DNA of 64,000 bases from Gammaproteobacteria bacterium (GCA_029881255.1 JAOUMY010000005.1:66479-130478); one strand, 5' to 3'. Positions 10,320 through 26,455 are shown, counted from the first letter of the stretch. Translations and numbers: made by a program. The notes: a model not told the origin generated them from the sequence alone.

Positions 10320-11328
10320 CTACTCTTTCTCTACATCCTTCATCGTCGTCACCAGACGGTCAAAATCGCTTATGTATTCTTCATCCTGAATGACACGAAA
10401 TTTTTCAAACTCGGTTTCGGCCAAGGCTTTAGCTATACTGGATGTCACTTTACCCGCGTCATTGAGAAGCTCGTATTCGTTGAAGGCGAGAAAGCTGTCG
10501 AGTTTACTCACCCAATCTTGCATGTTCATCAAACGCTTCCGTAGCGCCCGACCTTCAGCAAAATCGAGATACATGGATACAATCCGATTTAGTTCCTTGA
10601 GCTCATCTTCTGAAAGATAGTTCTTAACCACTGTGACATCTGATTTTAAAATCTTCCCGCTTGGCGCCTGCTTCCATGAACTCAGCCCCATATTTGGTTT
10701 TCCGACATCGACGCGTTCGTGAATCAATCCCGCCGCCGTATGCCCTGTGACCGCCCAATGGAGTTTATTCTGCACTTGAGCAAAAAAACTGCTTGGTAAG
10801 CTCTGCATCACGATTATAGTCGGCGGAACACTGCGCATAGATATCCGTAATCTTCTGGTAAAACCGTCTCTCTGAGGCGCGAATCTCCCGAATACGCTCC
10901 AGCAACTCATCGAAGTAATCCTTGCCCCAGCTCTTCCCCTGCTTCAATCGCTCATCATCCAATACAAAGCCTTTCATGATGAACTCGCGCAATGTTTGAG
11001 TTGCCCAGATACGAAACTGCGTGGCCTGGTAGGAATTAACCCGGTACCCGACCGATACAATCGCGTCCAGATGATAGACATTGGTGTTGTAGGATTTGCC
11101 GTCGGCAGCAGTTATTCGAAAAATTCGAATAACTGAATCCTCATTCAACTCATTGATCTTAAATATTTCTTTTAAATGATAATTTATCGTCTGGACCTCA
11201 ACGCCAAACAATTCGGCCATCTGCTTCTGCGTTAACCAAAGATTCTCTTCCAGGAAATAGACGGCCAGACGAACCGCACCGTCGGGACCGGTATAAAAGA
11301 CGATTTGTGATTGAGGCTCGACATCCAC
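10320..11328 (-). pseudogene. RhuM-family protein gene (the family RAST calls DNA-binding protein in cluster with Type I R-M), frameshifted
   Basis: N-terminal ORF (10765-11328) carries IVFYTGPDGAVRLAVYFLEENLWLTQKQMAELFGV. C-terminal ORF (10320-10910) carries WAVTGHTAAGLIHERVDVGKPNMGLSSWKQAPSGKILKSDVTVVKNYLSEDELKELNRIVSMYLDFAE. The two halves are in different frames and switch near an A7 run at 10785-10791. Confidence 0.65.
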
Positions 11329-11831: not shown

Positions 11832-13025
11832 CTAAAACACATACTCACTAATATCTAGGTACTTGCTGATTCTAGGCAGAGTAAGTTTGTATTCGCCTGA
11901 TTCCACTTTTGCTAATGTAACATGCCAATACATCTTCCCCTCTGGCCTTTCCGTAGTATTTAAGTGCCCAATATTTTCCATAAATACTTTCATCGGTATA
12001 GCAAAAGCTTTGTCTAAATCCATTCCGCCCAGCACGAGAAACGAGTCCGAACTTGGTCCTAGGAATTCCTCCCAACGGGTATGAAACACAAACCAATACC
12101 GTTGATTTTCTCTTTCGTATGGTTTTGAGATCGTACAAACAACGCGTAGTTCTCTGTCCGCGCTCCAGTATGTCGCCCTCGTTTTCTTTATGAGAGCCTT
12201 ACCCTTTATCTCCCCAAATCGCCTTATAATATTGTCACGTTTTGCATCAAGTTCTTTTGCATCAGTAAATTCCCATGTTGACTTGCTAGTATTTGCACTC
12301 TTTTCTTGCGTTGCACGCTCGTTTGTCTCTACTTCCGCTGATTCTTCTACATCTTGCGCAGTCGTGTATATAACATCGACTAGGGCATCCAAACGTGTAT
12401 ATTCAAATGGCCGCAAAAGCTGTCTTACCTTTTTGCTCGTATCGTTTTCGGACAACATTTTTACTTTCAAAAGAGCTAAAAGTGACTCCACGCTAATTAT
12501 TCTAATATCCCAAGCATGACGAGATCCGCGAACTTGTGCCTCTAATTCGCCGGTATCATTTCGTCCTACGACAATGAGAATGGAAGACTCGCCGTCGATT
12601 TTACCTTGCTCACATAATTGGCGCCGATATCTGGCCAATGTGTCCAAGGTTATTCTATACGCGTCCGTCGTCTTAACCTCTACGACAAGACTAAATCCTT
12701 CTTCAGCTTTCCACAAACCATCAAATCCGACTTGGTTACTTCGTCCTTGGTACAACCCATACTCGACATCGAAATCAAGTCTTTTACCGAGAATATTGAC
12801 GAGATCTTGTAGCACGACTCCACTGTTATTAAACGACTTTTCTAAACACTGTTGAATATATTGTCCAATAAACTGCCTATCCATTGCCTCTAAGTATTCT
12901 CTAAGTTCCTTAGAACACACGGAGTTGTCTTTTAGATTCCCATCCCCTGCGAGCCCAACGAGTTGCTGTATCTGCTTTGACTCGATATCTTCCTTATTTG
13001 TTTTCCACAGACTCAGTAGCGACAT
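11832..13025 (-). CDS. PD-(D/E)xK nuclease-like protein (restriction-endonuclease fold) with uncharacterised C-terminal domain, co-transcribed downstream of hsdM
   Basis: GFDGLW...FSLVVEVKTTDAY fits D-x(n)-E-x-K. 10-nt gap after the hsdM stop. AT-richer than hsdM. C-terminal domain (YWFVFHTRWEEFL...GKMYWHVTL) is unassigned. Confidence 0.45.
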   Translation of the reverse strand: MSLLSLWKTNKEDIESKQIQQLVGLAGDGNLKDNSVCSKELREYLEAMDRQFIGQYIQQCLEKSFNNSGVVLQDLVNILGKRLDFDVEYGLYQGRSNQVGFDGLWKAEEGFSLVVEVKTTDAYRITLDTLARYRRQLCEQGKIDGESSILIVVGRNDTGELEAQVRGSRHAWDIRIISVESLLALLKVKMLSENDTSKKVRQLLRPFEYTRLDALVDVIYTTAQDVEESAEVETNERATQEKSANTSKSTWEFTDAKELDAKRDNIIRRFGEIKGKALIKKTRATYWSADRELRVVCTISKPYERENQRYWFVFHTRWEEFLGPSSDSFLVLGGMDLDKAFAIPMKVFMENIGHLNTTERPEGKMYWHVTLAKVESGEYKLTLPRISKYLDISEYVF

Positions 13026-13034
13026 AATACGTTC

Positions 13035-14540
13035 CTAGTTCAATTCTCCATTCCCTGCCAACACCTCCTCCACACTTCTAAACTCCTCCAACGCCGCCTC
13101 TAACTGCTCCACTATCTCCTGCGCCAACACATGCGGTGGTGGAAGATTTTCGGTGTCTTCGAGTGATTCGTCTTTTAACCAAAAGATATCCAGATTGGTC
13201 TTATCCCGCGCAACTAACTCATCATAGGTAAATGAACGCCACCTACCTGTCATTCCGGCATTCTTTTGGCCGGAATCCGGTTTGTCACTCCATGTCGCTT
13301 TGCGCTTGCTTCGGTCTTCGGCTTTATAGCACTCGATAAACTCATCAAAATCACTCTTCACCAGGCGTTTTGTTTTCAGGGTCATGTGCACATTGGTGCG
13401 GTAGTCGTAGACCCAGAGTTTTTTGGTCCAGGCGGTTTTGGAGGCGGGTTTAGCGTCGAAGAAGATGACGTTGGCCTTGACGCCCTGGGCGTAGAAGATG
13501 CCGGTGGGCAGGCGCAGTAAGGTGTGGAGATCGGTGCGTTCGAGCAGGTTTTTGCGCACGGTTTCGCCGGCGCCGCCTTCGAAGAGGACGTTATCCGGCA
13601 CCACCACGGCGGCTTTGCCGTCGATCTTGAGCATGTTGGCGATGTGTTGCACGAAGTTGAGCTGTTTGTTGGAGGTGGTGGCCCAAAAGTCTTCGCGCTC
13701 ATAGACCAGCTTTTCCTGTTCTTTTTTACCGGTCTTTTCGTTGATGACGGTAATGGAGCTCTTTTTACCAAAGGGCGGATTGGCCAGGACCATATCGACT
13801 CGGTCATCCCCCACTTCTTTGGCCAGGGCATCATTGGCGCTAATCGGGCATTCATCGCCTCCGATACCGTGCAGGTATAAGTTCATGGCACATAAACGCA
13901 CCACGCTATCGACAATATCGTTACCGCGTAAGGCGTGTTCTTTGAGATGACGTTGTTCTTTTTTGGAGGTGGCTTGTGCCGCCATGTAATCGTGGGCGGC
14001 CAATAAAAAGCCGCCGGTACCACAGGCGGGATCGGCCACGGTGTCGGTGGGTTTGGGTTGCATCACCTCCACCATCGCCTGGATTAACGGGCGCGGGGTA
14101 AAGTATTGCCCGGCACCGCCTTTCACATCCTGCGCATTGCGTTCCAACAAGCCTTCATAGATGTCGCCCTTCACATCCGCCGGCAAGGTGGACCACTGCT
14201 CCTTGTCGATCATCTTTATCAGGCGTTCCAGCTTGGCGGGGTCCTGGATTTTGTTTTGCGCCTTGCGGAAGATCGTGCCTAACATGCCGCCTTGTTTACC
14301 CAGGTTTTCCAGGGTATGGCGGTATTGCAGTTCTAAATCATCACCATCGAGCTTCACCAAATGGCCCCAGTTGAATTTAGTCGGCACCTGTACTTGCTGA
14401 CCAGCGGTTTCACGCTCATCGGCCATTTTTAGGAAGATTAAATAGGTAATCTGTTCGACATAATCCCCATAACCCACACCATCGTCACGTAAAACGTGGG
14501 CATAGTTCCAGACTTTGTTTACTATTTCTGATGCGCTCAT
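13035..14540 (-). CDS. hsdM: Type I restriction-modification N6-adenine DNA methyltransferase subunit HsdM
   Basis: HsdM_N-type N-terminus VWNYAHVLRDDGVGYGDYVEQITYLIFLKMADE. SAM motif I DPACGTGGFL. Catalytic motif IV LANPPFG. 501 aa. Confidence 0.9.
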   Translation of the reverse strand: MSASEIVNKVWNYAHVLRDDGVGYGDYVEQITYLIFLKMADERETAGQQVQVPTKFNWGHLVKLDGDDLELQYRHTLENLGKQGGMLGTIFRKAQNKIQDPAKLERLIKMIDKEQWSTLPADVKGDIYEGLLERNAQDVKGGAGQYFTPRPLIQAMVEVMQPKPTDTVADPACGTGGFLLAAHDYMAAQATSKKEQRHLKEHALRGNDIVDSVVRLCAMNLYLHGIGGDECPISANDALAKEVGDDRVDMVLANPPFGKKSSITVINEKTGKKEQEKLVYEREDFWATTSNKQLNFVQHIANMLKIDGKAAVVVPDNVLFEGGAGETVRKNLLERTDLHTLLRLPTGIFYAQGVKANVIFFDAKPASKTAWTKKLWVYDYRTNVHMTLKTKRLVKSDFDEFIECYKAEDRSKRKATWSDKPDSGQKNAGMTGRWRSFTYDELVARDKTNLDIFWLKDESLEDTENLPPPHVLAQEIVEQLEAALEEFRSVEEVLAGNGELN

Positions 14541-14563
14541 TCTTTTACCATAAAATTAAGTTT

Positions 14564-17500
14564 TTACTTTTTATCAAAAGGGATTTCCTTGACTAATAGC
14601 GAGACACCAATTTGCCTGGCTTGGCTATTCAACCCATCAAGCAAATGAACCAACTGCGACGTTTCAGCAGTTCTTTTTGAATCGTCTTTGATAGCTTTAG
14701 TTAATTCCGCTTTATTGACACATCCAGCAGTAGCTAGCACTACATATAGATTACGTTCAGGTTGATCAATTATATCTCTCTTAATTTTTTTCCATAACGC
14801 AGAGGCTGTCGGCTGGCCAGCAGGATGCTTAAAAAGCCGAGGAATTTGAGTTGAATTCCATTTTTTTCCTCTAGCCCAACTTTCTACTCCCTTTGGGGAC
14901 TCTATATTCGGCGACATATAAACAATGTTTTTAGATGCTTGTGAAACTATGTCATGCAACGCTGATGCAGATATTTTTGAATTACCTTTATTTGCTTTTG
15001 CATGAACAAAGGCTAATGACTTACTTTTAAAATCGACACACACAAAGTCTGCCGCTTCACTTCCAAGGTCATCGCAGATGATAGTTGATGGTGCAAACGG
15101 TAAGCCTATTTTATTTTGGGATATTACTGAAAATAAACTCCCTTTTGGAAACTGTTTAGTATTATTAGCTTTTAGCTTCTTGATTTCTTCTTCAGTACCT
15201 TTCTCATTCTTACAAGCTGGTGCGTCATTAGGTATTTCTATTAATTGAAGCAAATATTTCTCAAAGTAAGAGTAATCAATCTGGTAAAAATTTCTACCCG
15301 AATAAATGCTAGAACCATCTTTCATGCAGACGGTAATCACATCCTGGTTTCGATTAAAATAATCTGAAAATGCAGTAGGCTTTATACCTGTCGAGTCACT
15401 AATTGTTATGCTGGATGAAGAGTCTTCTTTAGTAATCCAGAATTTACGTTTCTCTGGTTTATATTTTAAATGAAAATCAATATCTGTTTTCTTATCTTCT
15501 ACTGATTCGACTGGCAAAAAACTAAGCTTGAAGAGAAAGGTGTCTGAGCCACCATTTTTAGGTGAAACTTCAACAGAAGCTTTTTGGCATAAATATTGTT
15601 CATCTCCTCCGCCTATATAGAAAACGACATCTGATCTAAACATATCAAATGATATTGATCCTGGGTCAATCTTATCAGGGGGGTCGCAGGCCGGCATATA
15701 CCTTGATAGGAAAGCGGAAGGAGCCGTTGAAGAGTCCAGTGCCTTTGCAGTTGACTTTGCCCAAGAAATAAAACTTTTATAGTCATGATCACGCAAGGTT
15801 ACTGTGTCAGCTTCTTTTCTTACTCGTCCATTTCCGATATTCAAATAACGACGCTCTTTATTTGAATAGCCTCTAGTAGTTCTACAGATATGGATTCGAT
15901 CTGTTATCGATGGAGAAATCAAGGATAGATTTGACCCTCGTATATCCACTCCTCTCACTGAGGAATCAAAAGGGATAGTATTTTGAGTGCTAGCGTTTGT
16001 GGGTGTAAAGCTCTCATCAAAATACTTTGACAAAGTGCCAGCACCTACTGGCAATGTGTGTTCATCAATATATTCCATCGGTAGATTACCGGCTGAATCT
16101 GCAATAAACACATAGTTTTTTGTAACGACCACACAATGTGTCTCAAGCCTAATTTCGTAAAGTGATCTACGGTATGCTCTGCTTGAATTAGCAATGCTGG
16201 CATAAACCCACAAAGCAGAATCTTTACGTTTCTGACATGGTTCATTGAGATTCGGCCCTAAAATAGTCGCATCTTCAAGATTCAAAGTGTCGGTGCAATT
16301 TTCAATGTAATCAGAGAGATCGAATGATTTAACTTTCTTACGAACTATTGCTGTTGGTGGAACAATAACTTGTGCATCACTATCTAAAGTTGAAGGATCA
16401 AATTTCTTTAGGAATCTCCCACTAAAATATTCTATTTCAGGCTGCAATGAGAGAAGCTTCTCTACAGCTTCTTTGTAATGCTGAGCACTTCTTAATTCTT
16501 GATCTCTCTCAAAATTTCGATAAGATTCCCACTCTACTTGAGGGCTTATTTCTTTTGGTGAAAGGATAAGCGAACAAGCATCTTTCGAGTCATCCCCACT
16601 TTTTCGAAGTATTCTGCCAATCTGTTGGATTAATTTTCTATCATTAGAAAATGAAGTGAATAATGCAGTTACACAAAAACGATTATCATCGAAACCTTCT
16701 GTTAATTTGTTTTGATGAACCCAAATGGCTGCGTCTTCCTCTTGCGGATCTGGCACGCTGCTATATAGATATTCTTCTTTCCTGCCTTGAAATCTATCAT
16801 GGATGCCTATTGCATTTATCGAGTTCTTATTACTTCGCAGGGTTGTCACCACATCCTCAATATCTGAAACATCTTTGCAACAAATAATTGCTCTCGGATT
16901 TGAACTAGGAAGACTTTTGCTTTTTAATAGCGATATCCATCTCCCTAAGAAGATTTCTGTTTGAGTTTGTAGCCTATCCGTATTTACACAGCTCAACTTC
17001 TCAAATTTAACATCCCTAATAATATTATTAGAAACAGCATCTTCGTGAGTAAAATGAAAGCATTGTGATTTTGGATCTGTTATTCGAAATAACTTCAAGT
17101 CATTTCGATACGGAGTAGCTGTTAGAAGTATTGTTTTTGTATTTAATTCTTTCACTGAGCGACCCCAGCCAACAGCAGGCTCGTAGTGGCACTCATCTAC
17201 AATTACGAAAGAAATAGTCTTCGCTAAAAGTTCATAAGCCTCAGAATATTCTTTTCTTAGGGTGCTTAAAGTAGCGAATGTGGTAACAAAGATTGCATTA
17301 GGGTTTGATTGTAACGTCGCTTCTGCTACAGAAGGCTTTAATTCTCGCACTCTTCTTGTTGGATTCTGTATTCCGCACTTATCCCAAAATCTCTCTTTAA
17401 TATCCGCAATCAACTGATTTCTTAAATATGCCCAAGGGGTTATGACGAGAGAAGAACCTGAACACGACAACGCTGTCAACGAGGCTATAACACCTGTTTT

Positions 17501-17638
17501 TCCAGTACCCGTCGGCATGCGGACCAAGCAAGTATCAGAGTTTGAATTTAGATGATCAACAGAAAACTTAACAGCATCCTTTTGGTGCGTCCAAAGTTTT
17601 GCTGCATTACTACGCGAGATATGAGCAAACGACTTCAT
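14564..17638 (-). CDS. SF2 DExH helicase fused to large C-terminal region with PD-(D/E)xK-like nuclease signature (cargo gene C)
   Basis: Motif I MPTGTGKTG, motif II VIVDECHY, motif III LLTATPYRND, motif VI QQIGRILR. C-terminal IICDDLGSEAADFVCVDFKSKSLAFVHAKANKG resembles a D...(D/E)xK nuclease core. About 40 % GC versus about 52 % in the flanking hsd genes. Its ATG overlaps the stop of the hsdM remnant (ATGA). Confidence 0.75.
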   Translation of the reverse strand: MKSFAHISRSNAAKLWTHQKDAVKFSVDHLNSNSDTCLVRMPTGTGKTGVIASLTALSCSGSSLVITPWAYLRNQLIADIKERFWDKCGIQNPTRRVRELKPSVAEATLQSNPNAIFVTTFATLSTLRKEYSEAYELLAKTISFVIVDECHYEPAVGWGRSVKELNTKTILLTATPYRNDLKLFRITDPKSQCFHFTHEDAVSNNIIRDVKFEKLSCVNTDRLQTQTEIFLGRWISLLKSKSLPSSNPRAIICCKDVSDIEDVVTTLRSNKNSINAIGIHDRFQGRKEEYLYSSVPDPQEEDAAIWVHQNKLTEGFDDNRFCVTALFTSFSNDRKLIQQIGRILRKSGDDSKDACSLILSPKEISPQVEWESYRNFERDQELRSAQHYKEAVEKLLSLQPEIEYFSGRFLKKFDPSTLDSDAQVIVPPTAIVRKKVKSFDLSDYIENCTDTLNLEDATILGPNLNEPCQKRKDSALWVYASIANSSRAYRRSLYEIRLETHCVVVTKNYVFIADSAGNLPMEYIDEHTLPVGAGTLSKYFDESFTPTNASTQNTIPFDSSVRGVDIRGSNLSLISPSITDRIHICRTTRGYSNKERRYLNIGNGRVRKEADTVTLRDHDYKSFISWAKSTAKALDSSTAPSAFLSRYMPACDPPDKIDPGSISFDMFRSDVVFYIGGGDEQYLCQKASVEVSPKNGGSDTFLFKLSFLPVESVEDKKTDIDFHLKYKPEKRKFWITKEDSSSSITISDSTGIKPTAFSDYFNRNQDVITVCMKDGSSIYSGRNFYQIDYSYFEKYLLQLIEIPNDAPACKNEKGTEEEIKKLKANNTKQFPKGSLFSVISQNKIGLPFAPSTIICDDLGSEAADFVCVDFKSKSLAFVHAKANKGNSKISASALHDIVSQASKNIVYMSPNIESPKGVESWARGKKWNSTQIPRLFKHPAGQPTASALWKKIKRDIIDQPERNLYVVLATAGCVNKAELTKAIKDDSKRTAETSQLVHLLDGLNSQARQIGVSLLVKEIPFDKK

Positions 17639-17832
17639 ATAATTTGTACGCCATCACCCCAGGCTAATTTATTTGGTATCTGCATATACTGTCCGGCTTT
17701 TTCTCGCTCATCGGCCATTTTGAGGAAGATAAGATATGTTATTTGTTCAACATAGTCCCCGTGACCCACACCATAATTACGTAAGACGTGGGCGGAGTTC
17801 CAGACTTTATTGTCTATTTCTGGTGCGCTCAT
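17635..17832 (-). pseudogene. 5' remnant (65 codons) of a second, diverged hsdM
   Basis: MSAPEIDNKVWNSAHVLRNYGVGHGDYVEQITYLIFLKMADEREKAGQYMQIP versus the full HsdM MSASEIVNKVWNYAHVLRDDGVGYGDYVEQITYLIFLKMADERETAGQQVQVP. About 80 % nucleotide identity over about 150 bp. Homology ends at the helicase start codon. Confidence 0.8.
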
Positions 17833-17854
17833 TTTTTAATAGTCTTTATATTGT

Positions 17855-20206
17855 TTAATCGGCCACTCTTTCAGTGGCTGTTACTGTGTTATCAATATGG
17901 ATAATCTCACACCTAACCTCTAGCCGTTTTTTGTCACTGCCAGTTGGTATAAGATGTTTTTGAATTGGCATCGGTATGGGAATAAATATCCTATTTTTAA
18001 GTGCAATGGTCGTCGTAGGATAAACTTCACCACCAGATGCCTCTGTAATAATCTCAGGCAACTGAATATCGTAATACAAGCCAAATCGACCAGAATGATG
18101 TTGAAATATCAACAAAATCCTCTGCCCACCCCATATAACTGATGTAGTATGAGGTTGAAGGAAAAATTCACCGTTTTGTTCTCTAATACGATCAGTTATG
18201 GCTAAGAAACACTGGAAACCATTTAAAGCTTGTTCACTATTTTCAATAGTAAGTAGTTTCGCATCTGTCTCAATATCTGTCCTTGATATTGCGGGCATTG
18301 GGACACCCGGCTCTGCACCGGTTCCTATTAATTGTTTCTCTGCCTCACTAACAATGTCTGGCACTACTTCTTGAGCAGACTTTGCTGACCCACTGTCAAC
18401 CACTTGTACATTTCGTCTAGCGACGACCTGAGATCTTCTTGCGCCTTCATCAACCGATATTTGGCCTGCAAGTACTAAATCCCATATTTCACTTAAACTA
18501 CCTAAGTCAGTCTTTTCATATTCATACACTTCGCGTTTGCTTCTCATTCTTTTCAGAAAGGCTTCTGCCCCTTCGCGTGTGGCACTAGGGACAAAGTTTG
18601 CTATTTTCGGAAATATTATCGATCTAACAAAATCCTTAACCATGCCGGCAAATACTTCAAATTCATTCTGATATACTTCGAGCAAAATAGAAGCCGATGA
18701 ACCATTAGGATTTATATAAATCGTTGGCACATTTCCTGCTAACTCTATGTACACTGGCAGTTGGTGAGAAAGGGAAGCTAATTCTATTCGTGCTTTAACA
18801 AAATAATCCGCCTCAAGTATCGAGGTAAGCCTAAACACAAGACCGGATTCCGCCAATGAATAATCCGACTGTTTCTTTAGGCTAATTACTTTTGGTGAAT
18901 CGTCTATTCGTTGAATATTTGTACAATATGCATTTATATAGTTGCTTTGACATCTTTTCCTTGGGTTACTTGTTGCAGCCACAAGTAATTTTTTATCCTC
19001 GCTCGCATACTGTTCTATTATTGAGGCATCTTGGCCTTCATAATAATTAAACAATGTTGGACTAATAGAATCTCTGATCTCTTCCAAGCTGATATTTCTC
19101 GAACCCGGCTCATTTCTGATGGTAATTTTCCCACATAAATCATACTTTCCGTGATTTACTACCCATTGCATAAATGCATTGCTCATGTCGGCTTGCGGCT
19201 GCTTTGATAGATGATGAGACACAAAGCTTTCTACATCAGTAAATATGTTTTGTAATATCTGTAAACTTTCTGTTTCTAATGCCTCACGACCTGCTGTTGG
19301 CCGCAAAAACAAAAAATCAGCAATACCACCTAGCCGATATACTGAACTTAATGATGTGGGCGCCAAACTGAACCCTGAGCGGTATGTTTTAACAGCTCCA
19401 ATGCCTTGACGAAGAATCATCTTGCCCGGTAGCGCCTGTGAATTATATTTGACGTTAGTTAGTTCAATACGAACTTCGCCAGTATTATCCCCAGCCAACA
19501 ACACATCCGACCTAGTTCTCTGGCTAATCTCCATATCTGATTGTTCTATTTTCCATGCTACATTTATAGGTGGTACGCTTTGCTCAAATCCTTGCTGGCT
19601 GATAAGTTCCCCATTTACGTAAACAGGTATCTGCACATGTGTTACACACTCTTTTATATAATTCGTGGCACTATTTAGATCGATTGGCTTGTTTTCGTAC
19701 AATATGGCAGTAACAGTGGTACCTGATGTGCCTTGCGCAGCCTCTTTCTTTACATCAATACAATTTTCTGTCGCAGACAATGACTCGCGTTCAGCACTCG
19801 ATATAATCCGTTCGCTTCCCAATAACTTCTCTGTTTCCACTATTAGTTTTTTTGCTACACCAAAGTTTGCCATTGCGCCAATACCAAAGGTACCTACTAC
19901 ACCGGCTGCCTTTGCGTGTTCATTATTTTTAGAGCTAGATCCAGCACGCCAAAAATGCTGTTTGACATCTTCAATTGTCATTCCAATTCCATTATCAGTA
20001 ATAACAACCTGGTTCTGCTTTATCGCTACATCGATGCGTGGAGAAAAAGTTGGATCATCAGCTTTTCTAAGCAATATTGCATCAAATGCATTTTGCGTAT
20101 TCTCTCTAAGTAACGCCAAAGGTGACTGATAGATTTGTGCTGCCAACACCTCAATTATTCTATCGATGTCGACCGCTAATGGTATTTTATCTATGTTGTC
20201 TGTCAT
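17855..20206 (-). CDS. GHKL-superfamily ATPase (Hsp90/MutL/MORC-like Bergerat fold) with long uncharacterised C-terminal region (cargo gene B)
   Basis: N box ENTQNAFDAI. G1 box VITDNGIGMT. G2-like GTFGIGAMANFG. 783 aa. Overlaps the upstream phosphoesterase gene by 4 nt. AT-rich (about 35-45 % GC). Confidence 0.75.
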   Translation of the reverse strand: MTDNIDKIPLAVDIDRIIEVLAAQIYQSPLALLRENTQNAFDAILLRKADDPTFSPRIDVAIKQNQVVITDNGIGMTIEDVKQHFWRAGSSSKNNEHAKAAGVVGTFGIGAMANFGVAKKLIVETEKLLGSERIISSAERESLSATENCIDVKKEAAQGTSGTTVTAILYENKPIDLNSATNYIKECVTHVQIPVYVNGELISQQGFEQSVPPINVAWKIEQSDMEISQRTRSDVLLAGDNTGEVRIELTNVKYNSQALPGKMILRQGIGAVKTYRSGFSLAPTSLSSVYRLGGIADFLFLRPTAGREALETESLQILQNIFTDVESFVSHHLSKQPQADMSNAFMQWVVNHGKYDLCGKITIRNEPGSRNISLEEIRDSISPTLFNYYEGQDASIIEQYASEDKKLLVAATSNPRKRCQSNYINAYCTNIQRIDDSPKVISLKKQSDYSLAESGLVFRLTSILEADYFVKARIELASLSHQLPVYIELAGNVPTIYINPNGSSASILLEVYQNEFEVFAGMVKDFVRSIIFPKIANFVPSATREGAEAFLKRMRSKREVYEYEKTDLGSLSEIWDLVLAGQISVDEGARRSQVVARRNVQVVDSGSAKSAQEVVPDIVSEAEKQLIGTGAEPGVPMPAISRTDIETDAKLLTIENSEQALNGFQCFLAITDRIREQNGEFFLQPHTTSVIWGGQRILLIFQHHSGRFGLYYDIQLPEIITEASGGEVYPTTTIALKNRIFIPIPMPIQKHLIPTGSDKKRLEVRCEIIHIDNTVTATERVAD

Positions 20207-21702
20207 GAATGTATATCCCGTTTTGCTTGAACATCCCTTAGCATTTCACCCTTTAATGTTTCATCTATCCCAAGCTCATCACCGTAATTACTGATTGCAT
20301 CTAAAGCATCTGTAAATTTTTTTAATTCACAATATGCGCTAACTAATGATACTAATTCTTGAATACTCTGTGGTTTCACAAACTGTCTGTTTAACCCTGT
20401 CCAATCCCGTGAATTTTCGAAGGCTTTCAAAAGCAATTTTCTTCCATATATTGGCAGTTCTTCTATTGTATTGAGTAATTTTATAGCTTCTCCCTCATCG
20501 CCTTCGCTCAACAATCGCTCTGCATCAATAATCTTCGAACTTACCATATGTGCTTTCTTATCAATCGGAGTGCCTGCTGGAGATGTTTCAGAAGACCATC
20601 GGACCTCTGCGTATGTTTTCCCCCCATATTCTGATAGATATCTTGGCCCGAATACGTGCCCACTCATCATTTCTCTAACATGAACTTTAGCGAAGTCATA
20701 ATCATCGGATATTTCAATAATGTTATATTGCCTTCTTTCTCCGGTCGGCAATTCTCGCGATCCCACACACAGAGAGCCGGCGCTAACTAAAGCCATTGTC
20801 GCCTCTGAGGGTACGCTGATAGTTTGTGGTGATACTTCGGTTCTATGCTGATGACCATGAACCCCTAATCGAAAGCCACGATATATCATTTCATGAATTC
20901 TATTATTATCCATATAGTCACTCTGCTCAGGAGGACCGCTAGTACTATGATGCCAAACGGCAATTTTCAACAAATAAGGTTTTCCTGAGTCTTTAATTCC
21001 TAAGTACGCTTGACCTATCGCTCCTTCAGGTATAGAGCCAACATAACGATAACAGTCATTTCTGTAGCACGAATTAAATCCAGCTACAGCAATATTTCCA
21101 TTATCTAATTCAAATAGATTCCAATACCTGTCTTTTGTTAGCTCATACGCCAGATCCACTCCGCTATAAAAATCACAATAGAACTTTTCATAGTTCTCAA
21201 ACCTACTGTCATATAATTTTTTATCAGTAATGTGATAGAGCTTTCTATCCGCAAATGAAAATCTATAATCACTCTCAGGATTATTGAAATATTGCCTCAA
21301 ATCTGTGCGTCCATTTGGCGGCGGATCTGAAACCTCACTCATTGCGGAGAATGCTTTATTCCAGTCAACATCATGATTACCTGGCACTATTACAATATTC
21401 TTTTTATTGCCCCCCAAATATCTATCTACTAATTCACTTAAAAAATCATTCGCAGATTGGTATTGCTGCATTAACTTTTTTTCAGCGTCCGTTTCTCCTA
21501 TTCTTACACCCTGTACGATATCGCCGCTCACAATAATCGCATCGATTGGTCCGATTTCAGGATCCTCTTTCCTATGGTTACAAAAATCTTGATCCAATGA
21601 AGCTACTAAAGAAGCGTTATCAATAGGCTCATCTGGTGAGCGATGCAAATCAGAAATATGGAGAATCCTATACATAAGAATTCGTCCAAAGCCGGCTGAC
21701 AT
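20203..21702 (-). CDS. calcineurin-like metallophosphoesterase with C-terminal extension (cargo gene A)
   Basis: Motifs ILHISDLH (D-x-H), VSGDIVQG (GD), VPGNHD (GNH[DE]), WHH, HGHQH (GH-x-H). True start may be the internal MYRILHISDLH at 21675. Begins 18 nt after the hsdS stop. Confidence 0.75.
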   Translation of the reverse strand: MSAGFGRILMYRILHISDLHRSPDEPIDNASLVASLDQDFCNHRKEDPEIGPIDAIIVSGDIVQGVRIGETDAEKKLMQQYQSANDFLSELVDRYLGGNKKNIVIVPGNHDVDWNKAFSAMSEVSDPPPNGRTDLRQYFNNPESDYRFSFADRKLYHITDKKLYDSRFENYEKFYCDFYSGVDLAYELTKDRYWNLFELDNGNIAVAGFNSCYRNDCYRYVGSIPEGAIGQAYLGIKDSGKPYLLKIAVWHHSTSGPPEQSDYMDNNRIHEMIYRGFRLGVHGHQHRTEVSPQTISVPSEATMALVSAGSLCVGSRELPTGERRQYNIIEISDDYDFAKVHVREMMSGHVFGPRYLSEYGGKTYAEVRWSSETSPAGTPIDKKAHMVSSKIIDAERLLSEGDEGEAIKLLNTIEELPIYGRKLLLKAFENSRDWTGLNRQFVKPQSIQELVSLVSAYCELKKFTDALDAISNYGDELGIDETLKGEMLRDVQAKRDIHS

Positions 21703-21719
21703 TCATACTGGACACTTCA

Positions 21720-23135
21720 CTATATTCCATTTAATGATCCCTTGAATACTGAAGCTAAAACTGATTGTTTGTTTTTTTCTGCTTTTCTAAGCTGAACACC
21801 CAAATCATCGTCCAAGCGCTGGATTGCTACCAATCGTTGCTCTACCAACCGGACAATTTCTTCTTGTTCCTCAATGCTTGGAAAAGCTATTCGTAAAGTC
21901 TTTAAGTTGTCTAAGTTTAATCCTGGCTTTCCAGCACCATAAGCCGCCTCTTCTAGTTTTTTTCTTGCACCATCTTTACTTATTAGATATGTATAGAGAT
22001 ATCTCACACATTTCGTTATCGTCGGCCTACATAACGCAACATGCTGGCTCACGTAGGCTTCATCTAATTCAATATTTACACAGCCTGTCTTTGTCACATT
22101 TGCACCAGTGATGGTTATCAGAAGATCTCCATACTTAACTCTTGTTCTCATGCCTTCCGCTTTATCGGGCAAACTTACATACGCAATACTATCTAAATCT
22201 AATACATCATATTTCAAATTCTGAGCTCGTATAAACGTTGCACCAGAATCTGCGTAATACTTTGCCCATCCTCTTGAACCCGATGTTATATATTCAGTCA
22301 ACTGGTCTAATGAAGCCGTTATCCATTCACTTGGTAACTCAAGGTCTTCTGGAAGGACAGGTTCTATATACTTCCCCTTCCACTTATCATCCTTGGGCAT
22401 TTTGCCTTTAGCTTTGAATTGCTCGAGTTGTTGTTCTTCCCATTTTTGGCGGCGTTCTTTGAGGATACGTTCGAGTAGTTGGGAAGCGGGTTCGAGCTTT
22501 GCCTTGTTTGCTTCGCGCCATTCTTTGGTGAGTTCGCCGGTGACGGCGGCTTTGAGGACGGATTGGCGGTATTGTTTGAGGAGTTGTTTGGCTTTTTTTA
22601 GGGCTTCGATGCCGGCGTCGATATGGGAGAAGAGTTCTTCGATTTTGGCGACGATGCGTTTTTGTTGTTCGGGTGGTGCTAGAGGCACTGGGATCTGTTT
22701 TAGGTCCGCCTGATTCAATTTGAGCCTAGTTGTACCACCCACATAGTCTTTGTAATTAAATTTATTGAGATAATGCAGAAGATATTTATTCGAAGTAACT
22801 CCTTCTATCGCATCTAATATATGCGCATGGTTGTTGACCCAGAATTTCCCCTTCGCAATGTAAGCAACATTCTTTGATTTATCGAAGAACGGCGCACCGT
22901 CTTCACCAATTAATAGATACTCGCCTTCGAATATGAAACCATCAATGACGCCTACTTGACCTGTTGCACCATAATACGGATACAGCTCGTCTTGAGATTT
23001 ACCATCAATTCGAGCAGATCTTTCTTTACTATTAATTGGAATACGCTTCGAATCTAAAATCTCAGCACAATCCGAAAGTGGCGATATAGCCCACCCTTCA
23101 GGCAATTCATTCATTTTCTCTAATACTGCACTCAT
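21720..23135 (-). CDS. hsdS: Type I R-M specificity subunit HsdS
   Basis: Two target-recognition domains (AT-rich). Conserved central and C-terminal coiled-coil repeats (LPEGWAISPLSD...; second TRD LPSEWITASLDQL...). 471 aa. 4-nt overlap with hsdR. Confidence 0.85.
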   Translation of the reverse strand: MSAVLEKMNELPEGWAISPLSDCAEILDSKRIPINSKERSARIDGKSQDELYPYYGATGQVGVIDGFIFEGEYLLIGEDGAPFFDKSKNVAYIAKGKFWVNNHAHILDAIEGVTSNKYLLHYLNKFNYKDYVGGTTRLKLNQADLKQIPVPLAPPEQQKRIVAKIEELFSHIDAGIEALKKAKQLLKQYRQSVLKAAVTGELTKEWREANKAKLEPASQLLERILKERRQKWEEQQLEQFKAKGKMPKDDKWKGKYIEPVLPEDLELPSEWITASLDQLTEYITSGSRGWAKYYADSGATFIRAQNLKYDVLDLDSIAYVSLPDKAEGMRTRVKYGDLLITITGANVTKTGCVNIELDEAYVSQHVALCRPTITKCVRYLYTYLISKDGARKKLEEAAYGAGKPGLNLDNLKTLRIAFPSIEEQEEIVRLVEQRLVAIQRLDDDLGVQLRKAEKNKQSVLASVFKGSLNGI

Positions 23136-25930
23136 GCAATGAGGTATCCGTTCAATTCTTGTATTAACTTATCTAGATCTTTCCCAAACAACTCCCTCGC
23201 CTTCAACAACCCACCCTCCTGGTTAAAGGGAATGTAGTTAAAGTCGTCTACCGTCATTTCGGCATTTTGGGCGATTTGGTCTTTTATTTTATTGAGCCAG
23301 GCGAGTTGGTCTGGCTGGAATGCTTTGTTTTGTTGTTTTAGCCAATTATTAAAGCGGTTGTTAACCAGCTCTGTGAAAGGTTCGAGCACGTCGCTTAGGC
23401 CGGTGGAAAAACGAATGAGGCTGACGATGTTGGTTAACAGCTCTTTCGGTGGTACGCCTTTGACTTTGTTTTTTTCCAACTGCTCGTAGGCCTTCCACAC
23501 TTCGATGGGCGCGAGATTATACGGCGGTTGCTGGATTTCTTCTGCCAGTTTTTCTATTTGCTCATAACTCAGGTGGCGCTTTTGATAGGGCTGCTGGTAG
23601 ATGAGCTGGATGGCGTCGAGTTCGTCTTTGTGGTCTTGAATAAATTGTTGCCAGTTTTGGATGAGGACTTCGGCTTTTTCTTCGTCGTAACCGGCGGCGA
23701 TCAGCTCATCGGCGCTGTCGTCGATGAGTTGGTCTGTGTCTTTGCGCAGTTCTTCGATGAGTTCGCGCAGGTCTGGATTGTGGAAGGGTTTGATTAGAAT
23801 ATCGGCCTTGGGTTTAAACGCTTCCTGGATTTGTTTCTCGTTTGGTTCATCGGTCTTGGCGTGTATTTTTGCCGCTTCGATTAAGGGCTCTTCGTTGGTG
23901 GCATGAATGAGTTCACCGGCGATGAGGGCCAGGGGTTTGTCGGTGCCAAGGGTTTCTTTAATTAAGCTGTTGACGCGTTTGCGTTGTTGGTCGTTGAGTT
24001 TGAGATCGAGCCGGATCATGCGGTTGCCGAGGGCACGCAGGGTTTCGGAATGGCGGTCGCCTCTGGCGACTTGTTCCATGAGTTTGGCGGTGGAGACGCT
24101 GGGTTTGGTTTCCAGTGATTTGGTTTCGGTTTTGTCGGTTTCGGTGACGCCGACGCAATCGACCAGCACAAAGCGGCTTTTACCGGGGGCATCGGGGGTG
24201 ACTTTGTGTAGTTCGTCTCGGCTGATGATGCGGGTGCCACGGCCTTTCATTTGTTCGTAGTAGGCCTGGCTTTTGACATCACGCATGAACATGACGCATT
24301 CCAGGGGCCGGATGTCGGTGCCGGTGGCGATCATGTCGACGGTAACGGCGATGCGGTATTGCGGATCGGTGCGGAAGGCCTTGATGGATTCTTCTGCGGT
24401 TTTTTTGCCGACTTTGTAGGTGATCTTTTTGCAGAAGGCGTTGCCTTCATCGAAGACTTCGCGCACGGCATCGACGATGCGGTCGCAGTGGTCGTCGTCT
24501 TTGGCGAAGATGAGGGTTTTGGGGACCCATTCCATTTTGTCTTGTTGCCATTTGCGCTCGGGGAAGCATTCTTTGAGGCAGCGGTCTTTATAGGCCTGGA
24601 TGACGGTGCGAATCTGGTTGGGGGCCAGAACGCTGCGGTCGAGTTGTTGGGCGAGCCATTCTTCTTCCTGGTCGAGCACTTCGAGGCGTTTTTGTTTGGT
24701 GAGGCGGTCGCGGATTTCGACGGCGGTGCCGGCTTCGATTTTGTTGCCCTGTTCGGTGAGCTCGGTTTTGATGCGGTAGATGTCGTAGCCCACATTGACC
24801 TTGTCGACCACGGCGTCTTCGTGGGTGTATTCGGAGACGAGGTTTTGCCCAAAAAAGCCGATGGTCTTTTTGGTGGGTGTGGCGGTGAGGCCAATGAGGA
24901 AGGCATCGAAGTATTCGAGCACCTGGCGCCAGAGGTTGTAGATGGAGCGGTGGCATTCGTCGATGATGATGACATCGAACTCTTCGATGGGGATGTCGGG
25001 GTTGTAGCTGACGGGCCGGGGCTCTTTGTTAATGGTACTGCCTTCTATTTCAAAGCCGGAGTGTTCGTCGGCCTCGTCATCCAGCTCTTGATGCGTAAGT
25101 TGGGAATACAGGCGCTGGATGGTGGAGATGGTGACCTTGGTGGCGTCGGGGATGCCGGCGCGGCCGAGGATGTTGACGTTGTAGTGTTGGGTGAATTTGC
25201 GGCCATCGTGGGGGATGACGAATTGTTCAAATTCATCCTTGGCATTGGTGGCGAGGTTGCCACGGTCGACCAGGAACAAGACGCGTTTGACCTTGGCGAA
25301 CTTGGCCAGGCGATAGACTTCGGTGACGGCGGTGTAGGTTTTACCGGAGCCGGTGGCCATTTGTAACAGGGCGCGGGGTTTGCCGGCTTTGAGGCTGTGT
25401 TCGATGCCGGTGATGGCGTCGATTTGGCACGCGCGCAGGTTGTCGGTGTTGAGTTCGGGGAGGTCTTTTAGTAAACGACTTCTGAGCGTCGTGCCCTCTT
25501 CTAACCATTCTTTACAGGTTTCGGGTTTATGAAAATGAAACACATTGCGTGAGCGTGGGAGCGGATCGCGCTCGTCGCGAAAACGAACTTCGTGGTTGGT
25601 GGCTTCATAGAGAAATGGAAGTGGTTTGTTCTCTGGCGCCCAACGCTCGATGTGTTTGGTATTGGACGTTGCGTAGCGTCCGGATTGCTCGGCCACACCG
25701 CCTAAATCACTGCCCTCGCGTTTGGCTTCGATGATGCCGCAGGCCTTGCCATCGATAAACAACATGTAATCAGCAGGACCAGTATCGGTATCCATTTCGC
25801 GCACAGCGACACCAATATTCTCGAAGAGATTGAGACGATTTTTATCCTGCACCACCCAACCCGCAGCGATCAATTTTTGATCGATTTCCTGACGCGTTTC
25901 GGCTTCGAGTTTGGTGTAATCAGGACTCAC
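23132..25930 (-). CDS. hsdR: Type I R-M restriction/helicase subunit HsdR
   Basis: N-terminal nuclease-like domain ETRQEIDQKLIAAGW. Walker A QMATGSGKT. DECH box IIIDECHRS. 932 aa. Confidence 0.9.
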   Translation of the reverse strand: MSPDYTKLEAETRQEIDQKLIAAGWVVQDKNRLNLFENIGVAVREMDTDTGPADYMLFIDGKACGIIEAKREGSDLGGVAEQSGRYATSNTKHIERWAPENKPLPFLYEATNHEVRFRDERDPLPRSRNVFHFHKPETCKEWLEEGTTLRSRLLKDLPELNTDNLRACQIDAITGIEHSLKAGKPRALLQMATGSGKTYTAVTEVYRLAKFAKVKRVLFLVDRGNLATNAKDEFEQFVIPHDGRKFTQHYNVNILGRAGIPDATKVTISTIQRLYSQLTHQELDDEADEHSGFEIEGSTINKEPRPVSYNPDIPIEEFDVIIIDECHRSIYNLWRQVLEYFDAFLIGLTATPTKKTIGFFGQNLVSEYTHEDAVVDKVNVGYDIYRIKTELTEQGNKIEAGTAVEIRDRLTKQKRLEVLDQEEEWLAQQLDRSVLAPNQIRTVIQAYKDRCLKECFPERKWQQDKMEWVPKTLIFAKDDDHCDRIVDAVREVFDEGNAFCKKITYKVGKKTAEESIKAFRTDPQYRIAVTVDMIATGTDIRPLECVMFMRDVKSQAYYEQMKGRGTRIISRDELHKVTPDAPGKSRFVLVDCVGVTETDKTETKSLETKPSVSTAKLMEQVARGDRHSETLRALGNRMIRLDLKLNDQQRKRVNSLIKETLGTDKPLALIAGELIHATNEEPLIEAAKIHAKTDEPNEKQIQEAFKPKADILIKPFHNPDLRELIEELRKDTDQLIDDSADELIAAGYDEEKAEVLIQNWQQFIQDHKDELDAIQLIYQQPYQKRHLSYEQIEKLAEEIQQPPYNLAPIEVWKAYEQLEKNKVKGVPPKELLTNIVSLIRFSTGLSDVLEPFTELVNNRFNNWLKQQNKAFQPDQLAWLNKIKDQIAQNAEMTVDDFNYIPFNQEGGLLKARELFGKDLDKLIQELNGYLIA

Positions 25931-26272: not shown

Positions 26273-26455
26273 TTAAAATGCGCAAACAGGTTTCGGCAGA
26301 CTGTTGTGTGCTAGGTGATTCAGTGTAGTTCCTGCTCTAAATTCTTCGGGAAGGCGGAACATCTCCTCAATCAACCCGCCTTCAATCATGTCAATAAAGA
26401 TGTTCGCATCACTGATTAACAACATCTTGCGAACACTCCATGTTCCGACAGGCAT
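26273..26455 (-). CDS. short ORF, possibly truncated PIN-like/DUF4411-like gene often found downstream of HTH-ImmA regulators
   Basis: 60 aa. LLISDANIFIDMIEGGLIEE resembles a PIN-like N-terminus. Overlaps the ImmA gene end. Very tentative. Confidence 0.2.
   Translation of the reverse strand: MPVGTWSVRKMLLISDANIFIDMIEGGLIEEMFRLPEEFRAGTTLNHLAHNSLPKPVCAF

What the first reader, a model, noticed from the sequence alone, without database searches (positions are those of the whole stretch)
17635..17832. Diverged 5' remnant of a second hsdM, translationally fused (ATGA) to the helicase start
- A 65-codon ORF about 80 % identical to the 5' end of the intact hsdM (13035-14540) sits between the GHKL ATPase gene and the helicase gene.
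- Homology to hsdM stops exactly at the helicase ATG (17638), which overlaps the remnant's stop codon.
- This marks a precise recombination junction. The cargo, or the downstream helicase-hsdM-nuclease block, was probably swapped in by recombination within hsdM, a known hotspot anchor for defence cassettes.
- The retained leader ORF may still provide translational coupling for the helicase.
Basis: seen in the sequence. Interest (0 to 1): 0.6.

Follow-up and report, generated by a model that had tools for sequence, protein, structure and literature searches.

The report
Leftover start of a second hsdM gene
The 65-codon ORF is the decaying front end of a second type I methylase gene (hsdM), left at the seam where two anti-phage gene modules were stacked inside one restriction-modification operon; similar stubs recur in related loci.

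Summary
Window 17635-17832 (minus strand) is a 65-codon ORF. Its first ~59 codons match the 5' end of the intact hsdM (13035-14540): 79% nt, 47/64 aa, E 1e-30. Its TGA overlaps the helicase ATG. Homology fades about 20 nt before that ATG, not exactly at it.

Relatives show both parental layouts:
- L009-L011 carry hsdR-hsdS-phosphoesterase-GHKL ATPase followed by a full 492-aa hsdM where the stub sits here.
- L002 carries hsdR-hsdS-helicase-hsdM.

The window is therefore a composite, R-S-MPE-GHKL-M'|helicase-M, joined by a non-homologous join at 17638-17658.

The stub is a diverged allele, not a recent duplicate. It shows relaxed constraint, with five private amino-acid changes at otherwise conserved positions.

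The pattern is general. At least four further independent loci, and 14 of 49 sampled metagenome loci of this hsdM family, carry hsdM 5' stubs between cargo modules. Stub lengths range from 18 to 149 codons, so the process is not site-specific.

Translational coupling of the helicase to the stub ORF is plausible but untested. This is an ordinary kind of object, a gene remnant, and a useful marker of how embedded defence cargo is stacked.

The parts
17635..17832 (-). hsdM 5' stub ORF (65 codons; NCBI MDH5546198.1, annotated as an HsdM N-terminal domain-containing protein)
17659..17832 (-). Segment truly homologous to hsdM nt 1-~175: 79% to the resident hsdM, 70-81% to other alleles and stubs of the family
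17639..17658 (-). About 20 nt of unassignable filler. This is the junction interval between the hsdM-derived sequence and the helicase module
17635..17638 (-). ATGA overlap of the stub stop codon and the helicase start codon
14564..17638 (-). 1024-aa SF2 helicase. The N-terminal part matches ResIII/DEAD. The C-terminal ~530 aa match PADLOC candidate PDC-S71. The AF2 model has pLDDT 87, and only its helicase core finds PDB matches. This is cargo module B
13035..14540 (-). Intact hsdM (501 aa; HsdM_N + N6_Mtase). Its core is 93-100% nt identical to hsdM of L017/L019
17855..20206 (-). GHKL/HSP90-like ATPase (783 aa), second gene of cargo module A
20203..21702 (-). Calcineurin-like metallophosphoesterase (499 aa; weak PDC-S60 and DS9_1 hits), first gene of cargo module A
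21720..23135 (-). hsdS (471 aa, two target-recognition domains)
23132..25930 (-). hsdR (932 aa, EcoEI_R_C type), 89.7% nt identical to hsdR of L019
26409..27476 (-). HTH + M78 peptidase regulator (PADLOC RmrA-like) at the head of the gene string
11832..13025 (-). 397-aa gene 9 nt downstream of hsdM, with no assignable family. The 'nuclease' label is unsupported

Best explanation
The ORF is a non-functional 5' remnant (about 59 codons plus about 6 junction codons) of an hsdM gene that once ended an hsdR-hsdS-phosphoesterase-GHKL-hsdM operon. That layout still exists in relatives. A second cargo module, the helicase followed by its own full hsdM (a layout also seen on its own in a relative), became joined to it by an illegitimate, non-homologous join. 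The join lies about 20 nt upstream of the helicase ATG and removed the rest of the first hsdM. The result is two embedded defence-type modules stacked between hsdS and the single working hsdM.

The stub no longer evolves as a methylase. It persists as a scar that also happens to be an open reading frame ending on the helicase start codon. From that position it may pass ribosomes to a helicase gene that has no Shine-Dalgarno sequence of its own.

Shown: homology, position, collinearity with both parental layouts, relaxed constraint, and recurrence elsewhere. Inferred: the one-sided-homology or illegitimate-recombination mechanism, the direction of the event, and translational coupling.
For: - Homology of the stub to hsdM: E 1e-30 against the resident hsdM, and HsdM_N / MTase_I family hits.
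- Position: L009/L010/L011 have R-S-MPE-GHKL followed by a full hsdM where the stub sits. A single blastn HSP, window 21677..17658 against L009 8534..12555 at 72.8%, runs through into hsdM nt ~175.
- Second parental layout: L002 has R-S-helicase-hsdM. The helicase is 71% aa identical from residue 1, the hsdM is 82% identical, and the helicase-hsdM spacer is conserved.
- Not a recent duplicate: the stub is about equally distant (75-81% nt) from the hsdM 5' ends closest to it, including the resident one, and 23 of its 37 differences from the resident hsdM are at third codon positions.
- Relaxed constraint: five private amino-acid changes in the first 47 residues (V7D, Y13S, D19N, D20Y, Y24H), at sites that vary little or not at all among 13 other copies. 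Private nucleotide changes are spread 3/2/2 over the codon positions.
- Truncation: only 40 of 135 HsdM_N profile positions remain, and there is no catalytic domain.
- Recurrence of R-S-cargoA-stub-cargoB-hsdM: L015/L016, L017/L018, L019/L020 and L022, and 14 of 49 loci from a pattern scan. The cargo on both sides is defence-type.
- Stub end points differ (codons 18, 29, 43, 59, 61, 79, 101, 111, 119, 148/149, 179), which argues against a specific site.
- Helicase homologues start 2 nt after the preceding stop codon in three further contexts (L001, L002, L003), with no canonical Shine-Dalgarno sequence.
Against: - No relative was found that shares this exact junction. The nearest helicase is 71% identical and the nearest GHKL contig (L008, 85%) ends before the relevant position. 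The ancestral state is therefore inferred from more distant loci.
- The origin of the last ~20 nt is unknown.
- The source is a metagenome-assembled contig and the junction has not been checked against reads.
- The stub has no stop codon or frameshift in 65 codons, which could hint at selection on the reading frame. However, only 5.3% of possible substitutions create a stop, so an open frame is expected about 35-50% of the time for 12-20 substitutions.
Confidence: 0.85

Rival explanations
1. The stub is kept by selection as a leader ORF. Ribosomes terminating at its TGA re-initiate at the overlapping helicase ATG, so the remnant is needed for helicase expression. This is compatible with the remnant origin and adds a present-day function.
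For: - The stub stop and helicase start overlap as ATGA.
- There is no Shine-Dalgarno-like motif 5-13 nt upstream of the helicase ATG.
- In L001, L002 and L003 the helicase start lies 2 nt after the stop of the upstream hsdM or hsdS.
- The frame is open over 65 codons despite amino-acid decay.
Against: - The TGA is supplied by the helicase's own ATGAAG, so about one random join in three would give the same geometry.
- An open 195-nt frame is not improbable by chance.
- The stub's own ATG has only a weak ribosome-binding context.
- Stubs in other loci are mostly not abutted to the next cargo gene: the gaps are 105-375 nt in L015 and L022.
- There is no notable RNA structure, z = 0.71.
Confidence: 0.4
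2. hsdM 5' stubs are working recombination anchors. Each stub supplies a right-hand homology arm, so the cargo upstream of it can be swapped or a new module added without touching the downstream module and the functional hsdM. This would give an integrase-free way of stacking defence cassettes.
For: - L015 and L017 share stub-AbiE-hsdM and their flank at 95.7%, beginning 13 nt before the stub ATG, but carry unrelated upstream cargo.
- The two stubs are only 90% identical in their first 135 nt, against 98% for the two full hsdM genes, as expected if crossovers fall inside the stub.
- 14 of 49 sampled loci have stubs, and all of them are 5' pieces co-oriented with and upstream of the full gene.
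- The hsdM core is 93-100% nt identical across loci with a mosaic pattern, which indicates frequent recombination.
Against: - The same data fit passive scars of rare illegitimate events plus ordinary homologous exchange at any hsdM start.
- The window's stub shares at most 17 consecutive identical nt with the resident hsdM and is 81-86% identical to all other copies. It is therefore a poor recombination substrate now.
- The locus sample was ascertained with a 5'-end pattern.
Confidence: 0.3
3. The stub is a recent duplication of the resident hsdM 5' end, made when the helicase gene inserted into or next to hsdM, like a target-site or Campbell-type duplication.
For: - The resident hsdM is the stub's closest match at the amino-acid level (73-78%).
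- In L019 the stub and the full gene are 93% identical, so recent duplication may occur in some loci.
Against: - The stub is only 79% nt identical to the resident copy, with near-saturated third positions (23 of 59).
- It is equally close to hsdM genes and stubs of other genomes.
- It is collinear with the MPE-GHKL module of L009-L011 at the same ~72% identity as that module.
Confidence: 0.05
4. The junction is an assembly chimera of two co-occurring strains, one with MPE-GHKL-hsdM and one with helicase-hsdM.
For: The source is a MAG contig of 328 kb, and hsdM-family sequences are repeated in such communities.
Against: - A chimera would join at shared sequence. This seam joins hsdM codon ~60 to a helicase start, with no shared repeat.
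- The stub is a distinct, decayed allele.
- The exact 65-aa product, which spans the junction, is on record from several sources including Logan.
- The same architecture recurs in many independent assemblies, including long contigs of 0.27-0.9 Mb.
Confidence: 0.03

Closest known systems
Defence genes 'embedded' in type I restriction-modification operons (Payne et al. 2024 preprint, doi 10.1101/2024.01.29.577857; PrrC in EcoprrI; DarTG2 between hsdS and hsdR, PMC12255303)
   Same: - Cargo genes sit on the same strand between hsd genes.
- The cargo here hits PADLOC defence candidates: PDC-S60 weakly, and PDC-S71 over the helicase C-terminal half.
- An RmrA-like regulator heads the operon.
   Different: - Two unrelated modules are stacked and separated by an hsdM stub.
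- The cited survey excluded systems with pseudogenes, so such stubs were filtered out by design.
- I found no paper describing hsdM stubs as module boundaries.
Gene remnants left by homology-facilitated illegitimate recombination, where one end is anchored by homology and the other is joined non-homologously (from my own knowledge of work in Acinetobacter, Streptococcus pneumoniae and Pseudomonas stutzeri; not looked up here)
   Same: - One side of the inserted material is flanked by highly conserved frame genes: hsdR is 90% and the hsdM core 93-100% nt identical to other loci.
- The other side is a non-homologous join with a truncated gene left behind.
   Different: The mechanism is inferred only. 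No microhomology could be assigned at the join because no close parental sequence is available.
Translationally coupled overlapping genes (ATGA stop/start overlaps)
   Same: - The four-base ATGA overlap is present.
- The downstream gene lacks a Shine-Dalgarno sequence.
- The same operon uses start/stop overlaps of four bases at hsdR/hsdS and MPE/GHKL.
   Different: The upstream partner is a pseudogene fragment rather than a functional gene. Coupling is untested.
Integron-like cassette arrays
   Same: Successive cargo modules accumulate at one site next to a conserved gene, with a repeated sequence (the hsdM 5' end) at module boundaries.
   Different: - There is no integrase nearby.
- Boundaries fall at many different hsdM codons, from 18 to 179.
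- There is no attC-like element at the window's seam.

Membership tests
HsdM, type I RM methyltransferase subunit | Significant sequence homology to the family | tested here: met
   BLASTP E 1e-30 to the resident hsdM; PADLOC MTase_I E 1.1e-15; Pfam HsdM_N E 3.6e-9
HsdM, type I RM methyltransferase subunit | Complete HsdM_N domain (135 profile positions) | tested here: not met
   Only profile positions 1-40 are matched. The ORF ends at codon 65
HsdM, type I RM methyltransferase subunit | N6_Mtase catalytic domain with the AdoMet-binding motif and the NPPF motif | tested here: not met
   Absent from the stub. Present in the resident 501-aa hsdM (PF02384 E 2.9e-69; DPACGTGGF and NPPFG are visible in the translation)
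Gene remnant (pseudogene fragment) | A full-length gene occupies the same position in relatives | tested here: met
   L009/L010/L011 have a 492-aa hsdM 31 nt after the GHKL stop, and the DNA is collinear into hsdM nt ~175
Gene remnant (pseudogene fragment) | Relaxed selective constraint compared with intact copies | tested here: met
   Five private aa changes in 47 residues against 0-4 in 13 other copies, with private nt changes spread 3/2/2 by codon position. The sample is small
Type I RM-embedded defence cargo | Cargo nested on the same strand between hsd genes of one otherwise complete system | tested here: met
   hsdR, hsdS and hsdM are all intact and co-oriented, with four non-hsd genes and the stub inside or next to them
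Type I RM-embedded defence cargo | Cargo shown to protect against phage | not testable with these tools
   There are only candidate-level matches: PDC-S60 (E 1.3e-20), PDC-S71 (E 1e-40, C-terminal half), and DS9_1 far below its cutoff
Translationally coupled gene pair | Stop/start overlap and no independent ribosome-binding site for the downstream gene | tested here: met
   ATGA overlap. No GGAGG-like motif 5-13 nt upstream of the helicase ATG, read directly from the sequence
Translationally coupled gene pair | Downstream translation depends on upstream translation | not testable with these tools
   Needs Ribo-seq or reporter mutagenesis
Site-specific cassette system (integron-like) | A recombinase gene and a fixed recombination site at cassette boundaries | tested here: not met
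   No integrase in the locus. Stub end points vary from codon 18 to 179 across loci

The most novel reading that the evidence does not exclude
In this hsdR-hsdS-[cargo]-hsdM family of type I systems, hsdM 5' stubs are not only scars. They act as portable homology arms that let defence modules be stacked and independently exchanged without an integrase, turning the restriction operon into a cassette array. The window's stub would be one such boundary that has since decayed.
Probability: 0.3. Interest if true: 0.6.

Novelty: new member of a known kind. Interest (0 to 1): 0.4.

Why it matters
Embedded defence genes in restriction-modification operons are a current route to discovering new anti-phage systems, but how cargo gets in and accumulates is not understood. 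This stub, read together with the two parental layouts found in relatives, gives a concrete reconstruction of one stacking event.

The survey shows that hsdM 5' stubs are common module boundaries in this family: 14 of 49 sampled loci. Surveys that discard loci containing pseudogenes miss these cases. If stubs mark module edges reliably, they could be used to delimit cargo modules automatically and to date successive acquisitions.

For annotation, MDH5546198.1 should be treated as a pseudogene fragment, not as a small HsdM-domain protein.

Tried and rejected
- E. coli genomes: megablast of the 14-kb locus found nothing.
- Genome-contig scan with the helicase: only one distant locus.
- Promoter and terminator scan of 11.5-27.8 kb: no more sites than in shuffles, and none at the seam.
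- RNA fold of the stub region: z = 0.71, no structure.
- Rfam on the window and five loci: no hit.
- tRNA scan: none.
- Tandem repeats in 9-29 kb of the window: none.
- The 397-aa 'nuclease': no Pfam, NCBIfam, PADLOC or PDB match. The single-sequence AF2 model had pLDDT 35.7 and was unusable.
- Helicase: no PDB match by sequence. Foldseek on a good model (pLDDT 87) matched only the SF2 motor core (RadD, MrfA, CSB, type ISP). The C-terminal ~600 residues remain unassigned.
- Literature: searching for 'PDC-S71' returned nothing, and searches for hsdM remnants in defence islands found no relevant paper.
- Microhomology at the join: I looked for microhomology or a target duplication between the hsdS/MPE boundary and the stub/helicase boundary and found nothing convincing. 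A TGGGGTGA / TGGGTGA resemblance to the L002 hsdS 3' end is too weak to use.
- Direction of the event: I tried to decide it from GC content and from similarity profiles along hsdM, and it stayed undecidable.

Full report
**What is there**

All genes of the region lie on the minus strand. In order of transcription they are:
- an HTH + M78 peptidase regulator (26409-27476; RmrA-like in PADLOC)
- hsdR (23132-25930; 932 aa, EcoEI_R_C type)
- hsdS (21720-23135)
- a calcineurin-like metallophosphoesterase, MPE (20203-21702)
- a GHKL/HSP90-like ATPase (17855-20206)
- the 65-codon ORF of the finding (17635-17832)
- a 1024-aa SF2 helicase (14564-17638)
- an intact 501-aa hsdM (13035-14540)
- a 397-aa gene with no assignable family (11832-13025)

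Gene spacing is tight. hsdR/hsdS, MPE/GHKL and stub/helicase each overlap by 4 nt, and the other gaps are 9-23 nt. The source is a 328-kb contig of a gammaproteobacterial MAG. The ORF is already in NCBI as MDH5546198.1, 'type I restriction-modification system subunit M N-terminal domain-containing protein'.

**Check of the observation**

- The ORF translates to MSAPEIDNKVWNSAHVLRNYGVGHGDYVEQITYLIFLKMADEREKAGQYMQIPNKLAWGDGVQII.
- Against the resident HsdM it gives 47/64 identities, E 1e-30.
- It hits Pfam HsdM_N (E 3.6e-9, profile positions 1-40 of 135 only) and PADLOC MTase_I (E 1.1e-15).
- At DNA level it is 79% identical to hsdM nt 1-177. Similarity starts at the ATG, and the leaders upstream are not alike.
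- Homology is clear up to ...TGGGG (codon 59-60). The last ~20 nt before the helicase ATG match neither hsdM nor the sequence upstream of the helicase in the closest relative. So 'stops exactly at the helicase ATG' should read 'stops about 20 nt before it'.
- The ATGA overlap is real. The TGA is supplied by the helicase's own ATGAAG, so about one random join in three would end an upstream ORF there.

**What it is: evidence from relatives**

The GHKL ATPase has close relatives. In L009/L010 and L011 (GHKL 75-77% identical, contigs of 2.6-4.0 Mb) the layout is hsdR(EcoEI_R_C)-hsdS-MPE-GHKL-hsdM. The full 492-aa hsdM starts 31 nt after the GHKL stop. One blastn alignment of the window (21677..17658) runs collinearly through MPE, GHKL and the spacer into hsdM nt ~175 of L009/L011, at 72-73% identity. 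The stub therefore sits exactly where a complete hsdM sits in these loci.

The helicase's closest relative (P0002, 71% identity) lies on L002. The layout there is hsdR-hsdS-helicase-hsdM:
- the helicase ATG is 2 nt after the hsdS stop
- the hsdM is 82% identical to the window's
- the helicase-hsdM spacer is conserved

Window 17600..13156 is collinear with L002. The window is therefore a composite of two layouts that each exist on their own: R-S-MPE-GHKL-M'|helicase-M. The seam lies between 17658 and 17638.

**Is the stub a recent duplicate or an old allele?**

Over nt 1-177 the stub is 79% identical to the resident hsdM, 75% to L002, 70% to L009-L011, and 77-81% to the alleles or stubs of L019 and L022. 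Of the 37 differences from the resident gene, 23 are at third codon positions. Most of the divergence therefore arose while the sequence was still a working hsdM of another lineage. It is not a fresh copy of the resident gene.

After truncation it seems to have drifted. It has five private amino-acid changes in the first 47 residues (V7D, Y13S, D19N, D20Y, Y24H), at sites that vary little or not at all among 13 other copies. Its private nucleotide changes are spread 3/2/2 over the codon positions. Of the 13 other copies, eleven have 0-2 private amino-acid changes and two have 3-4 (L017's stub and L011's full gene).

Having 40 of 135 HsdM_N positions and no catalytic domain rules out methylase function. 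The open frame is not evidence of selection. Only 5.3% of possible substitutions create a stop codon, so 12-20 substitutions leave the frame open 35-50% of the time.

**The pattern is general**

A search with the stub returned 80 short HsdM_N-only ORFs, several of them on long contigs. Their contexts show the same architecture with other cargo.

| Locus | Cargo upstream of the stub | Stub extent (hsdM codons) | Cargo downstream of the stub, then hsdM |
|---|---|---|---|
| L017/L018 | SLATT-TGT-Ogg-QueC-TIR | 1-119 | AbiEi-AbiEii, hsdM |
| L015/L016 | CTD6-MC2-AAA_15 | same stub | AbiE, hsdM |
| L019/L020 | reverse transcriptase | 1-148 | Polbeta nucleotidyltransferase + 142-aa gene, hsdM |
| L022 | 255-aa gene | 1-101 | three small ORFs, hsdM-Fic |

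L013 carries several hsdM fragments.

A scan of metagenome contigs used a degenerate pattern for the conserved LIFLKMADER stretch and gave 49 loci.
- Every locus with both hsdS and hsdM in range has a 1.8-5.3 kb gap between them.
- 14 of the 49 carry one or two extra hsdM 5' pieces. All of these begin at codon 1 and are co-oriented with, and upstream of, the main hsdM.
- No isolated 3' pieces lie downstream.
- The flanking cargo is defence-type: PD-(D/E)XK + AbiE, AAA_15/SMC ATPases, DUF3800, a DEAD helicase, Fic.
- Stub end points differ (codons 18, 29, 43, 61, 79, 111, 149, 179...), so there is no fixed site and no recombinase signature.

Two caveats apply. The loci were ascertained through a 5'-end pattern, and L057 and L062 are probably the same sequence assembled twice.

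**How it most likely came about**

The frame genes are far better conserved than the cargo.
- The window's hsdR is 89.7% nt identical to that of L019.
- The hsdM core (nt 250-1100) is 93-100% identical to L017/L019, with a mosaic profile.
- The cargo modules' nearest relatives are 66-85% identical at the amino-acid level (helicase 71%; MPE 66-78%; GHKL 75-85%) and ~70-78% at DNA level.
- GC content shows the same split: hsdR and the hsdM core are 0.53-0.57, and the cargo is 0.37-0.42.

This fits exchange of cargo by recombination anchored in the conserved hsd genes. A clean swap needs homology on both sides. A stub needs one homologous end and one illegitimate end. Two routes are possible:
- An R-S-MPE-GHKL-M locus took up 'helicase-hsdM', anchored in the hsdM core or downstream. 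The left end joined inside the old hsdM at codon ~60.
- An R-S-helicase-M locus took up 'hsdS-MPE-GHKL-hsdM 5' end', anchored in hsdR or hsdS.

The window's hsdS C-terminus resembles that of L010 rather than L002, which weakly favours the first route. I could not decide between them.

The L015/L017 pair shows that the start of a stub is an exchange boundary. The two loci share 4.4 kb at 95.7% identity beginning 13 nt upstream of the stub ATG, yet carry unrelated cargo upstream.

The window's stub shares at most 17 consecutive identical nt with the resident hsdM. That is below the roughly 25-bp minimum usually needed for efficient RecA-dependent recombination (from my own knowledge). Loop-out of the helicase by stub/hsdM recombination should therefore be rare, and the composite should be stable.

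**Translational coupling**

The helicase ATG has no Shine-Dalgarno-like motif at -5 to -13. In three other contexts (L001, L002, L003) the homologous helicase starts 2 nt after the stop of the preceding hsdM or hsdS. Coupling to an upstream ORF therefore looks like a habit of this gene, and the stub provides such an ORF here. This is a reasonable inference but is untested. There is no notable RNA structure (z = 0.71) and no promoter or terminator prediction at the seam. Stubs elsewhere mostly do not abut the next gene.

**Comparison with what is known**

Embedding of defence genes in type I RM operons is established: PrrC, DarTG2, and the 'guilt-by-embedding' survey. That survey excluded systems with pseudogenes. 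My literature searches found no description of hsdM stubs as boundaries between stacked modules.

The object itself is a gene remnant at a recombination seam, which is an ordinary kind of thing. Its recurrence and strict 5' polarity in this family are a modest new observation. It is not a member of the functional HsdM family, because the domain tests fail. It is also not part of an integron-like site-specific system.

**Verdict**

It is wrong or unproven on three details: a homologous crossover within hsdM at this seam, the 'nuclease' label, and translational coupling. Interest is moderate (0.4).

Noticed in passing
window 14564-17638; L001 1626-4691; L002 2744-5818; L003 10001-13066; L004-L007: The 1024-aa helicase family (783 database hits at E <= 0.001) lies inside a type I RM operon in every context examined, directly after hsdM or hsdS. 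It may be an accessory or alternative motor for the type I complex. Its C-terminal ~600 residues are confidently modelled (pLDDT 87) but match nothing in the PDB by Foldseek.
   Followed up: partly
window 17855-21702; L008 8532-12352; L012 8520-12352; L009-L011: The metallophosphoesterase + GHKL ATPase pair is a mobile two-gene module. It is embedded in type I RM (window, L009-L011), carried as cargo next to Tn7-like rve/TniB/TniQ genes (L008), and found beside a type ISP-like enzyme and cytosine methylases (L012).
   Followed up: partly
L065 276-438; L030, L050, L072 (variants in L013, L067, L071): A recurrent class of very short stub: hsdM nt 1-87 (codon 29) followed by a conserved 75-125-nt element (GCCGCTCCCGGC...CCGCGGCATTnGAACATCCATGTTCGTCACAATTACCTATAAATGAGGTTCCAC), and then the full hsdM ATG. 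The middle of the element varies. There is no Rfam match and its nature is unknown.
   Followed up: partly
L026 448-573; L061 1661-1786 and ~2870-2925; single units inside the stubs of L015 (~3430), L017 (~10150) and L067: A 57-nt unit (TTCATCAAGTATTTCCTGAACTAAGTTCTGGTCACACTGCAGAACCCCTTCGGGT) with internal hairpins forms 2.3-copy tandem arrays just upstream of hsdM. Single copies interrupt several stubs. It looks like a REP/MITE-like repeat and is absent from the window.
   Followed up: partly
L022 2487-4028; L013 10001-10198: An in-frame proline/serine-rich insertion (GGIPSPHPSS...) with a palindromic core sits after codon ~47 of an otherwise full-length hsdM (L022). The same kind of insertion ends the L013 stub. 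This suggests an insertion hotspot in the hsdM 5' region.
   Followed up: no
window 13035-14540 compared with L017, L019, L022: The hsdM core (nt ~250-1100) is 93-100% identical at DNA level between different metagenome genomes, while the first 200 nt and last 300 nt drop to 55-85%. The profiles are mosaic, for example L015 falls to 69% where L017 stays at 99%. This points to frequent recombination or gene conversion within hsdM.
   Followed up: partly
window 10320-11328 (minus strand): A RhuM-family gene is split into two overlapping ORFs (Pfam profile positions 1-120 and 116-249), so it is probably a frameshifted pseudogene. L022 has an intact RhuM in the corresponding downstream flank.
   Followed up: no
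L063 4611-4832 (oriented coordinates): A 59-codon 3' fragment of hsdR lies between a full hsdR plus ~1.1 kb of inserted sequence and hsdS. This hsdR stub mirrors the hsdM stubs at the other cargo slot.
   Followed up: no
L004-L007 5108-9878; L003 4767-9998: In the hsdM-first relatives, two full-length hsdM genes flank a cargo gene (GmrSD in L004 and L007; a SLFN/AlbA-like gene plus an IS66 in L003). In L005/L006 no second hsdM gene is called, although tblastn still finds the same hsdM-like sequence there. Here the duplicated anchors are intact rather than stubs.
   Followed up: no
window 8000-30000: There is a sharp GC contrast. hsdR and the hsdM core are 0.53-0.57, like the flanking chromosome at 27.6-29.4 kb. 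hsdS, both cargo modules and the 397-aa gene are 0.37-0.45.
   Followed up: partly
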